Source of the DNA: Nibricoccus sp.
GTDB lineage: Bacteria > Verrucomicrobiota > Verrucomicrobiia > Opitutales > Opitutaceae
DNA: 64,000 nucleotides
Direction of reading: 5' to 3'
NCBI GenBank assembly: GCA_047602425.1
Contig: JASGHG010000001.1
Coordinates: 3,872,001 to 3,936,000 of the forward strand
Shown here: positions 49,254 to 53,434 of the stretch, one piece after another
Layout: every line of letters starts with the position of its first letter
How positions within the stretch are numbered: position 1 is the stretch's first letter
Made by a program: the position numbers and the translations under genes
The notes under the pieces: model-generated
The model's input: only the letters and a program-made list of their open reading frames with translations
What the model was told of the DNA's origin: nothing
Database searches by the model: none

Positions 49254-49973
49254 ATGTCCAATCTTGTTCCTGCGCCTATTTCCACCACGCCCGACCTCGA
49301 AAAAACTTCCGCTGAAGAACGGGTTCGATGGGCGGTGGACACCTACGGCGACGGCTTGGTGCTGACGACCAGTTTTGGCATTCAAGCGGCGGTGATGTTG
49401 CATCTGGTGACGCAAGTTGCGCCGAAGATTCCCGTGATTTTTATCGATACCGGTTACTTGTTCCCGGAAACGTACCGATTCGCGCGCGATCTCACGGCCC
49501 GGCTGAATCTGAATTTGAAGAAATATGTGCCGGCATCGACCGCGGCTGAGCAGGAGGCGCTGTTTGGCAAGGAATGGGAACAGGGCGTGGAAGGACTGAA
49601 ACGCTATAATTTCCTCAACAAAGTCGAACCAATGGACCGCGCCATTCGCGAACTCGGCGCCACGGCCTGGCTGGCGGGCTTGCGACGTTCACAATCGAGC
49701 ACTCGCGAGGCGGTGAAAATTGTTCAACAGCAAAATAAAATCGCCAAAATTCATCCCATTGCCGACTGGGACAACAAGCGCGTGCATCAATATCTCACCA
49801 AATATGAGCTGCCTTATCATCCGTTGTGGGAAGAAGGCTATGTCTCGGTGGGCGACTGGCACAGTACGACCAAGCTACTCGATGGCATGAAGGAAGAAGA
49901 CACGCGCTTTGGCGGCCTCAAACGCGAATGCGGCCTCCACGAAGTTTCCGGCCGCACGGATTTTTCGATTTAG
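49254..49973 (+). CDS. cysH: Phosphoadenosine phosphosulfate (PAPS) reductase
   Basis: [33 protein letters not shown]; lacks the CC/CxxC Fe-S motifs of APS reductases. Confidence 0.92.
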
Positions 49974-52015
49974 GGCGTAAGCTTAAACTGCGGGTGATCT
50001 TCGATGCTCTGCGCGAAGGCGTGTTTGTCGTCCTCCGACAAATGGGCGGGATATTTGGAGCTGCTGCGGCGCCAGCGCGCGAGCCACTCGCTGTCGAGCA
50101 ATTTAGGTCTGGCGGGATGTTCGTTTGCGCCGCTGATCCGGTTGAAGGCCACGGTTGTGCTGGCTTTGGGACCGGTGCCGAGGCCTTCGCCCACGAAGAA
50201 ACCGGTGCTCAGCAGGGCGACACGCACGGCCGTCGCGGCGGAATAAGTGTAGAGCTCCGTCGACTTTGAACCGCAGTGTTGGACGATGCGGGCAAAAACC
50301 TCGGACGTCCAAAGCGCGGAGTCGGTCTTGGCGGAAAACGGATCGTAGAAAATAAGGTCGGGCACGGCCGCTTCTTCCAAGTACTCGAGGAAATCGCCCG
50401 CGAGTAGTTCCCACTGCATCAAGCCGGATGCGTGCGACCAGCGGCCATTGGCAAGAATCGCATGCGGTGCACCGTGTCGCAGATGGAGAAAGTGCGAAGC
50501 GTGGCGGGAGGCGAGTTTGAGCGGATCGAGATCGCATTCGAAACTGACCAGCCGAAGCGGACGCACCGCATCGGGGCCTTTTGCGGCGAGCGTTTGCTCG
50601 AAGCATTGGAGCGCGGCCATAGCATTGGAGGCGGCGCCGAGGCCGACATCCCAGATCACCAATTCGGAACTGTTCTCGCCGGAAGGCTTGAGCAAACGGT
50701 CGGCAAGGTGGGATTGCTCGATGTAGAGCCGGTTGGCTTCGTCGTGCGGGGCGGAAACGGAGTGCATCACTTCACCGGAGCTAACCTGTCGAATGCTGGA
50801 AAATCCCTGGGGCGATGTGATCATTTCATAGTCGCCGAGTTTCCGCCGGGCCGTCGAAGTGCCGCGCGTTTTCTTTGGGTGCAGGCACGGGTTGTCCTCG
50901 TCATTGCGCATGAGTTCGGGCCGTTTGCGTTCGTAGTAGGCGGGAAATTCGTTTCGCAAAATGCTCTCTCGCATCTCGCGCATGAGACGGTGATAAAACG
51001 CGATGTTGTGGGTGGCGAGGAGTTGCCAGGCGAGCATCTCGTCAGCTTTGACTAGGTGGTGAATGTAGCCGCGCGAATGATTGCGGCAGGTATGGCAGTC
51101 GCAGCGGGCATCGAGCGGCTCGTCTTGAAATTTGTAGACGGCGCGACGGAAGTGCATCCGGCCATGCGAAGTAAAGGCGGTGCCACGTTGCGCGAGTTGC
51201 GAGGGGATGATGCAATCGAACATGTCTACACCGCGGTGGACGGCTTCGAGAATGTCGATCGGTGTTCCTACGCCCATCAGATAGCGTGGCAAATGGTGCG
51301 GCAGGTGATCGGTGGCGAGATCGGTGAAACGATAGCGTTCTTCATGCGTTTCTCCGACGGCAAGCCCGCCGATGGCGAGTCCGTCGAACGGTAGTTTGCC
51401 GAGAAAAGCGGCGCTTTTTTTTCGCAACTCCGGATGGCAGGCGCCCTGGACGATGCCGAACAACGCCTGCGGGGAATCGCCACGGGCGCGCAGCGAGCGC
51501 TCGGCCCAGCGATGCGTGAGATGCATGGCGGCCTCGGCTTGTTCATAGGGAGCGGTTGAGGGAATGCACTGATCGAGCACCATCATGATGTCGCTGCCGA
51601 TGGCCTTTTGCATCTCGATGCTGGATTCGGGCGACAGGAGATGAACGGCGCCATCCACGTAACTCTTGAAACGCGCGCCGTCCTCGTTCATCACGCGGTC
51701 GCTGGGCAGGGAAAAAATCTGGAAGCCGCCGGAATCGGTGAGCACGGGTCCATCCCATTTCATAAACCTATGAATACCGCCAAACGCCCTGAACACCTCG
51801 GGACCGGGACGGAGCATCAAGTGATAAGTGTTGGCCAGCAGGACGGTGGAACCGGTGGCCTTGAGGCTTTCAGCGGTTTGTCCCTTGACGGTGGCTTGGG
51901 TGCCGACCGGCATGAAAACAGGGGTTTTGACCTCGCCATGGAGCGTTTGAAAGGTTGCCGCGCGGGCCTTGGAACCAGTGGACGTGTTTTCGAGTTTAAA
52001 GTTGAGACGGGACAT
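49970..52015 (-). CDS. tgt: tRNA-guanine(34) transglycosylase fused to a C-terminal MnmC2/MnmD-like SAM-dependent methyltransferase
   Basis: aa ~1-370: [47 protein letters not shown], Zn site CDCHTC..H. aa ~395-681: [51 protein letters not shown]. Confidence 0.9.
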
Positions 52016-52183: not shown

Positions 52184-53434
52184 ATGATTTCGATTCCTGA
52201 ATTGCTCGCCCCTGCCGGGGACTGGAAAAGTCTCGACGCCGCGCTCGATGCCGGCGCGGACGCGGTGTATTTTGGTGTGCGTGGCTTCAACATGCGTGCG
52301 GCGGCGAAAAACTTTACGACGCGAGATCTGCCGAAGATCGTTGCGCGCTGTCACAAGCGAAAGGTGCGGGCTTATCTTACGCTCAACGTTGTGGTATTTG
52401 AGCGTGAAATGGTGGCGTTGCAGCGCTTGTTGAAGGCGGCGAAAAAGGCGCAAATCGACGCGGTCATTGGTGCGGATTTCGCGGTACTGGCGGCGGCGCG
52501 AAAACTCGGCCTGCAAGTCCACGCCTCGACCCAGATGTCGGTCGCGAATTCGGCGGCAATTGCATTTCTTCACGGGCTGGGCGTGCGGCGTTTCGTTTTG
52601 GCGAGAGAGTGTTCGATCGAGGACATTCGCAAGATCAAGCAATCCCTGCGAACGGCCCTCGGGAAAAAGGCCGACGCTGTGACGATCGAGGCGTTTGGCC
52701 ATGGCGCGATGTGTGTCTCGATGAGCGGACGTTGTTTCCTATCCAATTTCGAAGGCGGAAAATCCGCCAATCGCGGCGAGTGCTCGCAACAGTGTCGACG
52801 GGAGTATCGCATCGTGGAGACACGTGCCGGTCAGGAATGGACCTTGGGCAAGGACTATATTCTCAGTCCAAAGGACCTTTGCACCCTGCCATTTCTGGAA
52901 AAACTGATCGACGCCGGCGTGGGCTCATTGAAAATCGAGGGTCGAAATCGCGGTCCGGAATATGTTTCGACGGTGGTCGGCGCTTATCGCCGGGCTTTGG
53001 ATTTTTACGCGAAAAATCGAGGCAAACGTGGGTGGTTAAACCAATTCGAAGAGCTAAAAACTTCGCTGGTAAAGGAAGTGGGCGATGTCTACAATCGGGG
53101 CCTCTCATCAGGTTTCTATTGTGGAAAGCCGATCGGCCAGTGGAGCACGAAACCCGACAATGCGTCGCCGATGCGGAAGCGTTTCGTCGGCACCGTGGTG
53201 AATTATTTCAAGAAACCCGCCGTGGCTGAGATTGCAGTGCAAGACGAACCATTTGGCATCGGCGATGAACTTTTCGTCGAAGGCCACACGACCGGCTTTT
53301 TCCGGCAAAAAGTGGAATCGCTTCAGATCGATTCGCAGCCGGTCGACAAAGCCCCCTCAGGCGTTCACGTCGCCCTGCGCGTCACCGAACCAGTCCGTAG
53401 AGGCGACAAGCTCTACGTCATGCGCGCGAAGTAA
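52184..53434 (+). CDS. Peptidase U32-family Fe-S protein (TrhP-like RNA hydroxylation protein)
   Basis: ELLAPAG, GADAVY, HASTQ, HGAMC..SGRC, NRGECSQQCR, SPKDL, LKIEGR; C-terminal beta-barrel. Confidence 0.87.
   Translation: MISIPELLAPAGDWKSLDAALDAGADAVYFGVRGFNMRAAAKNFTTRDLPKIVARCHKRKVRAYLTLNVVVFEREMVALQRLLKAAKKAQIDAVIGADFAVLAAARKLGLQVHASTQMSVANSAAIAFLHGLGVRRFVLARECSIEDIRKIKQSLRTALGKKADAVTIEAFGHGAMCVSMSGRCFLSNFEGGKSANRGECSQQCRREYRIVETRAGQEWTLGKDYILSPKDLCTLPFLEKLIDAGVGSLKIEGRNRGPEYVSTVVGAYRRALDFYAKNRGKRGWLNQFEELKTSLVKEVGDVYNRGLSSGFYCGKPIGQWSTKPDNASPMRKRFVGTVVNYFKKPAVAEIAVQDEPFGIGDELFVEGHTTGFFRQKVESLQIDSQPVDKAPSGVHVALRVTEPVRRGDKLYVMRAK

What the first reader, a model, noticed from the sequence alone, without database searches (positions are those of the whole stretch)
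49970..52015. TGT fused to an MnmD-like aminomethyl N-methyltransferase: candidate new tRNA wobble modification
Seen: a complete bacterial-type TGT (D94, D148/C150, V220, D267, Zn ligands C305/C307/C310/H336) joined in frame through a basic linker to a domain carrying MnmC2/MnmD motifs ([34 protein letters not shown]). Established: bacterial TGT inserts preQ1 (7-aminomethyl-7-deazaguanine) at G34; MnmC2/MnmD methylates the aminomethyl group of nm5(s2)U34; N-methyl-preQ1 is known from phage DNA. Inference: both domains act at position 34 and preQ1 carries the same kind of primary aminomethyl group, so the fusion could insert preQ1 and N-methylate it, giving methyl-preQ1 tRNA instead of queuosine. 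The conservative alternative is a bifunctional Q34/mnm5s2U34 enzyme. Either would be an unusual system.
Basis: partly seen in the sequence, partly recalled or inferred. Interest (0 to 1): 0.82.

Follow-up and report, generated by a model that had tools for sequence, protein, structure and literature searches.

The report
Extra Tgt fused to amine methyltransferase
One gene joins an extra, altered copy of the enzyme that swaps the base preQ1 into tRNA to an amine methyltransferase; it sits beside the normal enzymes and probably makes a methylated base not yet reported in RNA, though this is untested.

Summary
Real: a 681-aa minus-strand ORF joins an intact bacterial-type Tgt to an MnmC2-fold methyltransferase. 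The fusion is named in one sentence of a 2023 preprint, and this scan noted it before in other genomes. Three results narrow its function. (2) Fused Tgts form one clade that keeps the preQ1 pocket but replaces two arginines (Z. mobilis R286/R289) kept in 72 of 72 ordinary Tgts; their role in reading U35 is partly recalled. (3) Thirteen Acidobacteriota genomes carry it although MnmG was found in none and MnmE in one, so the usual MnmC2 substrate should be missing there, yet the domain stays under purifying selection. Best reading (45%): preQ1 insertion at a site ordinary Tgt does not serve, then N-methylation. Against: MnmM is absent from all 29 carriers tested, which fits an ordinary mnm5s2U role (20%). 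No biochemical evidence found.

The parts
49970..52015 (-). Whole gene: Tgt paralogue fused to an MnmC2-fold methyltransferase, 681 aa (P0001)
50906..52015 (-). Tgt domain, residues 1-370: catalytic D94/D267; base pocket D148, C150, Q190, G217-L218-A219-V220, E222, M247; Zn site C305/C307/C310/H336; residues aligned to the Z. mobilis dimer interface K44, F84, Y317, H320, E326
   Evidence: Foldseek TM-score 0.94 over the Z. mobilis chain; VIA Z 50.3, rmsd 1.9, 365 aligned
51182..51217 (-). Clade-specific segment after the nucleophile, D267[12 protein letters not shown]273, Q276 and R277 stand where Z. mobilis has R286, R289 and N290
50840..50905 (-). Basic linker, residues about 371-392, low model confidence
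49973..50839 (-). MnmC2-fold SAM methyltransferase, residues about 393-681: D456, G458, G460, N464, E493, D541, D558, F560, W569, R598 align to E. coli MnmC2 E64, G66, G68, N72, E101, D156, D178, F180, W189, R217; M417 replaces Y28
   Evidence: VIA best methyltransferase matches 3vyw Z 23.9 (rmsd 2.9, 240 aligned) and 2qy6 Z 22.7 (rmsd 2.6, 224 aligned)

Best explanation
An accessory two-step RNA-modifying enzyme. Step 1 (inferred from intact residues): the Tgt paralogue excises a guanine and inserts preQ1, which the host makes with QueC/QueF. Step 2 (inferred from the changed segment; weakest step): it does so at a site the housekeeping Tgt does not serve, most simply G34 of a tRNA without U35. 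Step 3 (inferred from fold, catalytic residues and gene distribution): the fused domain uses SAM to N-methylate the primary aminomethyl group of the inserted preQ1, giving N-methyl-preQ1 as the end product. Ordinary queuosine is still made on tRNA-Asp/Asn/His/Tyr by the stand-alone Tgt, QueA and QueG. Shown here: anatomy, paralogy, residue pattern, co-occurrence and purifying selection. Not shown: any activity, substrate or product.
For: Second Tgt in 21 of 21, 8 of 8 and 11 of 12 carrier genomes. QueF in 41 of 41; QueA in 29 of 29 tested. Thirty fusion-type Tgt domains lie on one side of a branch against 39 ordinary ones, SH-aLRT 100 (quick tree). Catalytic and pocket residues invariant in 111 of 111 close homologues and in 19 of 19 diverse ones for D94, D148, C150, Q190, G217-E222, M247, D267 and the Zn ligands; C158/V233 equivalents mark a preQ1-type pocket (PMC3660597; PMC5699537). 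Both arginines kept in 72 of 72 ordinary Tgts, in 0 of 135 fused proteins and 1 of 71 fused metagenome loci. R286 lines a cavity joining the ribose-34/phosphate-35 pockets in one dimer form (PMC5395182). In one Acidobacteriota order 13 of 50 genomes carry the domain; MnmG reaches the cut-off in 0 of 32 and MnmE in 1 of 32, while the paralogue TrmFO was hit in 32 of 32 (two confirmed). There the methyltransferase keeps its motifs (12 of 12 full-length) with pN 0.04-0.09 against pS 0.28-0.66 in 5 pairs. The proposed amine-activating base D178 of MnmC2 (PMC3648344) is kept as D558. Where split, the two ORFs overlap in the same order (L023, L058).
Against: No experiment. That R289 reads U35 is recalled (Xie et al. 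2003, not seen); five paper searches and six paper look-ups gave no open text for it (65, 66, 75, 76, 102, 106). K52, which does contact U35, is kept as K44 in close homologues. One fused locus keeps both arginines (L218) and L109 keeps one. MnmM was found in 0 of 29 carriers against 6 of 25 non-carriers, and in this genome the fused domain is the only MnmC2-like protein beside an intact mnmE-mnmG operon; both fit an ordinary MnmD role. 27 of the first 29 carriers have MnmG. The Acidobacteriota are mostly fragmented assemblies of one order, their completeness is not displayed, and their fusions are close kin, so they count as about one event. No conserved neighbours point to a target.
Confidence: 0.45

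Rival explanations
1. Ordinary MnmD on a carrier: the methyltransferase converts nm5(s2)U34 (ammonium route of MnmEG) to mnm5(s2)U34, and the Tgt half is a redundant Q-pathway enzyme or a tRNA-binding aid. The domain might also act on both amines.
For: Only PF05430 protein in this genome, which has mnmE-mnmG and no MnmM or MnmC1 hit. MnmM 0 of 21 carriers against 6 of 25 non-carriers in the family, Fisher p 0.025 but kin are not independent. Closest solved folds are MnmC2. The preprint treats the fusion as an MnmC2 type.
Against: Kept intact and under selection in 13 genomes where MnmG was not found. Scores 71.7 against the 136 cut-off that stand-alone MnmC2s next to MnmC1-like genes pass (137-141 bits in 3 of 4 checked). 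Y28 is replaced by M in 12 of 12 fused domains aligned. It does not explain an invariant catalytic Tgt with a changed segment. The preprint's survey only covered genomes that have MnmA, MnmE and MnmG, so it could not see the exceptions.
Confidence: 0.2
2. One reading: the fusion acts on the same GUN tRNAs and diverts part of them to N-methyl-preQ1, in competition with QueA (for example when cobalamin-dependent QueG is limiting).
For: preQ1-type pocket and K44/D254 kept; passes the TIGR00430 equivalog cut-off; one member keeps both arginines.
Against: A second Tgt and QueA are almost always present. A new Tgt domain would not be needed to reach preQ1-tRNA that the ordinary Tgt already makes. 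The two arginines kept in 72 of 72 ordinary Tgts are lost.
Confidence: 0.15
3. Different order or target class: the methyltransferase acts on free preQ1 and the Tgt inserts the methylated base, or the pair modifies another RNA, DNA or a protein, as the Tgt relatives DpdA and Cap10 do.
For: Tgt-fold paralogues change target (7ui4 DpdA Z 26.4, 9ntn Cap10-CdnD Z 19.7; PMC5699537). Patchy spread over four phyla, with a same-genus genome lacking it. Q149 replaces a pocket-adjacent Glu.
Against: The domain is about 45% identical to tRNA Tgts and far from DpdA (15%). No shared neighbours across 29 loci. Not found in viral contigs or as a fusion on plasmids. MnmC2 acts on tRNA-bound amines.
Confidence: 0.15

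Closest known systems
TGT/MnmC2 fusion type listed in 'Alternate routes to mnm5s2U synthesis in Gram-positive bacteria' (bioRxiv 10.1101/2023.12.21.572861; passages read; supplement S3 closed)
   Same: Same domain pair, PF01702 plus the COG4121 MnmC2 domain.
   Different: One sentence in the main text, no function tested, and no remark in the passages found on paralogy, the arginine change or carriers lacking MnmEG.
Bacterial tRNA-guanine(34) transglycosylase, Tgt (TIGR00430; Z. mobilis 1ozm, 1q2r; E. coli b0406)
   Same: Fold, catalytic Asp pair, guanine/preQ1 pocket, Zn site and dimer residues.
   Different: Separate clade; R286, R289 and N304 equivalents replaced; nearly always an extra copy; tied to a methyltransferase.
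MnmC2/MnmD nm5(s2)U34 methyltransferase (NF033855; A. aeolicus 3vyw, E. coli 2qy6/3awi)
   Same: Fold and SAM/catalytic residues.
   Different: Below the family cut-off, Y28 to M, partner is Tgt not MnmC1, and present where MnmG was not found.
Phage DpdA/DpdM system making mdPreQ1 in DNA (bioRxiv 10.1101/2023.04.13.536721; passages read)
   Same: Would give the same base, N-methyl-preQ1, by insertion followed by methylation.
   Different: DpdM is a DUF3109 metal-binding protein, not an MnmC2-fold enzyme; the target is DNA.

Membership tests
Bacterial Tgt (Q34-forming) | TIGR00430 score above cut-off | tested here: met
   446.4 against 306.75
Bacterial Tgt (Q34-forming) | Catalytic D102/D280 and pocket D102, S103, D156, Q203, G230, L231, A232 (PMC5699537) | tested here: met
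   D94, S95, D148, Q190, G217, L218, A219, D267; invariant in 111 of 111
Bacterial Tgt (Q34-forming) | preQ1-type C158/V233 and the Zn site | tested here: met
   C150, V220, C305/C307/C310/H336
Bacterial Tgt (Q34-forming) | Conserved R286 and R289 after the nucleophile (empirical family trait in this sample; role in U35 reading recalled) | tested here: not met
   Q273 and Q276; ordinary Tgts 72 of 72, fused proteins 0 of 135
Bacterial Tgt (Q34-forming) | Exchanges G34 in U33-G34-U35 tRNAs | not testable with these tools
   Needs an enzyme assay
MnmC2/MnmD | NF033855 score above cut-off | tested here: not met
   71.7 against 136; 3 of 4 stand-alone comparators pass
MnmC2/MnmD | MnmC2 fold with E101, D178, F180 and the glycine loop | tested here: met
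   VIA Z 23.9 to 3vyw; E493, D558, F560, G458, G460
MnmC2/MnmD | Co-occurs with MnmE and MnmG, the source of nm5U34 | tested here: inconclusive
   Met in this genome and for MnmG in 27 of 29 carriers; not met in 13 Acidobacteriota carriers, MnmG 0 of 13 and MnmE 1 of 13
MnmC2/MnmD | Methylates nm5(s2)U34-tRNA | not testable with these tools
   Needs an assay or complementation
DpdM preQ1 methyltransferase | DUF3109 family with a CxxxCxxCC motif | tested here: not met
   Pfam gives only PF01702 and PF05430; no such motif in the C-terminal domain; definition

The most novel reading that the evidence does not exclude
A clade of Tgt paralogues has been retargeted to G34 of a tRNA without U35 (an A35 or C35 anticodon would suit Gln in place of Arg; this is inference), and its fused MnmC2-fold domain writes N-methyl-preQ1 there. 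That would be a new tRNA nucleoside and the first natural 7-deazaguanine at the wobble position outside the Asp/Asn/His/Tyr set.
Probability: 0.35. Interest if true: 0.88.

Novelty: new variant of a known kind. Interest (0 to 1): 0.7.

Why it matters
Bacterial Tgt is defined by its U33-G34-U35 target and its product flows only to queuosine. A second, horizontally spread Tgt with a changed target and its own capping methyltransferase would add a nucleoside and a branch to 7-deazaguanine chemistry in RNA, show MnmC2-fold enzymes switching base, and correct the annotation of well over a thousand proteins now called plain Tgt. A Tgt with another recognition sequence would also be useful for RNA labelling. 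The claim is directly testable with one gene in laboratory E. coli and LC-MS.

Tried and rejected
Assembly or frame artefact: rejected. Fusion replaces the Q route: rejected, since queA, queG and a second tgt are present. QTRT2-like dead subunit: rejected, catalytic residues are invariant. Operon link to the divergent U32 gene or to cysH: not shared by the other 28 loci (flanks only 1.5 kb for 21 of them). The single-sequence fold of the methyltransferase was useless (pLDDT 37.7) and was not searched. The genome-contig scan was dominated by ordinary Tgts (72 of 80) and was used as the control set instead. No relative in viral contigs; no full-length match on plasmids. No RNA holder listed. Myxococcota-centred sample: only 1 of 91 genomes had the fusion-type domain; 5 weak hits, four scanned as stand-alone MnmC2-like. 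No QueH in this genome. My first guess that the MnmM ORFs were MnmL fusions was wrong: 3 of 3 checked are MnmC1-like/MnmM fusions. Paper searches for methyl-preQ1 in tRNA gave only phage DNA and synthetic chemistry papers. Two recalled paper ids led to unrelated papers and two were not held. The careful tree did not finish; the quick tree is cited. Not tested: MnmA, MnmL, QueD, QueE; QueA and QueG in the 12 further Acidobacteriota; QueG outside this genome; protein complexes.

Full report
Observation. The window holds a 681-aa ORF on the minus strand, 52015 to 49970. Residues 16-364 match Pfam TGT and 524-624 match Methyltransf_30. The Tgt part passes the TIGR00430 cut-off (446 against 306.75); the C-terminal part matches NF033855 MnmC2 over 413-623 but below cut-off (71.7 against 136). 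A model from a 19-sequence alignment (pLDDT 88.5, pTM 0.58) shows two domains and a loose linker. It matches Z. mobilis Tgt (VIA Z 50.3, rmsd 1.9, 365 aligned) and Aquifex and E. coli MnmC2 (Z 23.9 and 22.7), ahead of spermidine synthases at 17.5 and below. The fusion is common: 1662 proteins matched the C-terminal region, and the 120 listed all carry both domains, named where labelled as Opitutaceae or Verrucomicrobia proteins.

What is in print. A 2023 preprint lists TGT among four further MnmC2 fusion types in one sentence; its survey was limited to genomes with MnmA, MnmE and MnmG (passages read; its supplement S3 is closed and may hold more). I reached it through earlier notes of this scan, and at least seven notes describe the same fusion elsewhere, several already calling it a second Tgt (read after my own tests). 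Searches on the fusion and on methyl-preQ1 listed no functional study; subscription papers are mostly not covered.

It is an extra enzyme. This complete genome (one contig, 99.97%) has a stand-alone tgt, queA, queG, queC and queF, and no queH. In the same family 21 of 71 genomes carry the fusion, all 21 also have an ordinary tgt, and the same-genus genome lacks the fusion. In a phylum-wide sample only 2 of 121 had two Tgts. Eight carriers from named records (Verrucomicrobiota, Riflebacteria, Acidobacteriota, Myxococcota) have two Tgts in 8 of 8, and 11 of 12 further Acidobacteriota do (the exception G230 is fragmented, two second copies are partial, and G239's fusion is cut between contigs). 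QueA was found in 29 of 29 carriers tested, three of them in pieces, and QueF in 41 of 41.

The Tgt half is a distinct paralogue. In a quick IQ-TREE tree 30 fusion-type domains fall on one side of a branch against 39 ordinary Tgts, including the partners from the same genomes (SH-aLRT 100; no outgroup). The catalytic and base-pocket residues listed in PMC5699537 (section read) and the preQ1 determinants C158/V233 (PMC3660597, passages) are invariant in 111 close homologues. What differs is the segment after the nucleophile: PSQLAQRG here against PTRxxRNG-like in ordinary enzymes. Both arginines (Z. mobilis 286 and 289 by the alignment) are kept in 72 of 72 ordinary Tgts from many phyla and in 13 of 13 more. 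Both are kept in 0 of 135 fused proteins, 0 of 40 fusion-type genome loci (five of these repeat loci, and L109 keeps one) and 1 of 71 fused metagenome loci (L218). N304 also becomes Arg or Lys and E157 mostly Gln. [quoted passage not shown] That R289 bonds to U35 is my recollection of the Tgt-RNA crystal structure and was not confirmed in any text I could open. K52, which contacts U35 (bioRxiv 10.1101/2020.09.01.277731, passage), is kept in close homologues but often replaced by Arg or Ser in distant ones. So a changed RNA target is a reasoned inference, not a result.

The methyltransferase half. It keeps the residues that PMC3648344 (passages) assigns to SAM binding and amine activation: E101, D178 and F180 align to E493, D558 and F560, and D558 and F560 are the same in all 12 fused domains aligned. 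It differs from true MnmC2 by Met for Tyr28 in 12 of 12. Three of four stand-alone comparators pass the NF033855 cut-off and lie beside MnmC1-like genes. In two Myxococcota loci the gene is split into overlapping ORFs in the same order.

Does it need nm5U34? In this genome mnmE and mnmG form an operon and the fused domain is the only MnmC2-like protein; MnmM and MnmC1 were not found. MnmM occurs in 0 of 29 carriers and 6 of 25 non-carriers; three of those six were checked and are MnmC1-like/MnmM fusions. This exclusion favours an ordinary MnmD role, but the sample is small, kin are not independent, and 19 of 25 non-carriers have no MnmM hit and at most a weak PF05430 hit. MnmG was found in 27 of the first 29 carriers (23 above cut-off, 4 in pieces). 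One exception, G186, also lacked MnmE, so I searched its order: 13 of 50 genomes (completeness filter 85%) carry the domain. I gave 32 of these 50 (all 13 carriers and 19 others) to the MnmG and MnmE models. MnmG passed in 0 of 32 and MnmE in 1 of 32 (G230). All 32 gave the weak partial hit typical of TrmFO (two confirmed) and 31 gave a partial GTPase hit (taken as EngA/Der, not checked), so random incompleteness is an unlikely cause. The 12 full-length fusions there are intact in both halves. In five pairs the methyltransferase shows pN 0.04-0.09 against pS 0.28-0.66, like the Tgt half (uncorrected proportions). An MnmC2-type enzyme maintained without the known source of nm5U34 needs another amine, and the one its own Tgt partner would supply is preQ1. 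Caveats: one order, related sequences, mostly metagenome assemblies, and an unknown route to nm5U cannot be excluded.

Mechanism and odds. Most likely (0.45): the paralogue inserts preQ1 at an RNA site that the ordinary Tgt does not serve, and the fused domain N-methylates it, while queuosine is made as usual. Rivals: ordinary MnmD on a redundant Tgt, or dual use (0.2); competition with QueA on GUN tRNAs (0.15); methylation of the free base or a non-tRNA target (0.15). N-methyl-preQ1 is known from phage DNA, made by DpdM of an unrelated family (passages). There is no conserved neighbourhood, no viral or plasmid copy was found, and no expression data were available.

Verdict. The architecture is on record and has been seen repeatedly by this scan. 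The paralogy, the arginine switch and the survival without MnmEG are not in the text I could read, and they make an undescribed modification more likely than not in some form (about 0.6 for N-methyl-preQ1 in tRNA or another RNA, adding the first rival on GUN tRNAs). Novelty: new variant of a known kind. Interest 0.7.

Noticed in passing
L001:1459-2595 (G000:C1:3678984); also L114-L117, L133: The housekeeping Tgt of this genome and of same-family genomes has lost two or all three of the Zn-binding cysteines, whereas the fused paralogue keeps the full site.
   Followed up: partly
G186 and its order: An Acidobacteriota order in which MnmG was not found in 32 of 32 genomes and MnmE in 31 of 32; how these bacteria modify U34 is open.
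   Followed up: partly
L118:307-1953, L119:283-1929, L120:1489-3213: MnmC1-like FAD oxidoreductase fused to MnmM in same-family genomes that lack the Tgt fusion; a fusion type also listed in the 2023 preprint.
   Followed up: partly
window 52184-53434 (+): U32 peptidase-family gene, divergent from the fusion; best NCBIfam match TrhP (197.7 bits, far below the 534 cut-off); not a shared neighbour in other loci.
   Followed up: partly
G000:C1:2388522-2391778 and 2425174-2431080: Two large tRNA arrays (16 and 22 genes) in nearly the same order, suggesting a duplicated or mobile tRNA cluster.
   Followed up: no
L134 (G033:C111:317-1441): Sole Tgt of a same-order genome has a changed pocket loop (Gly in place of the Val233 region), resembling queuine-using enzymes (the resemblance is recalled).
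   Followed up: no
L218: A fused member that has both arginines, a possible reversion and a natural control for specificity tests.
   Followed up: no
window 49254-49973 (+): PAPS reductase (cysH) ends overlapping the fusion's stop codon by 4 bases, convergently.
   Followed up: no
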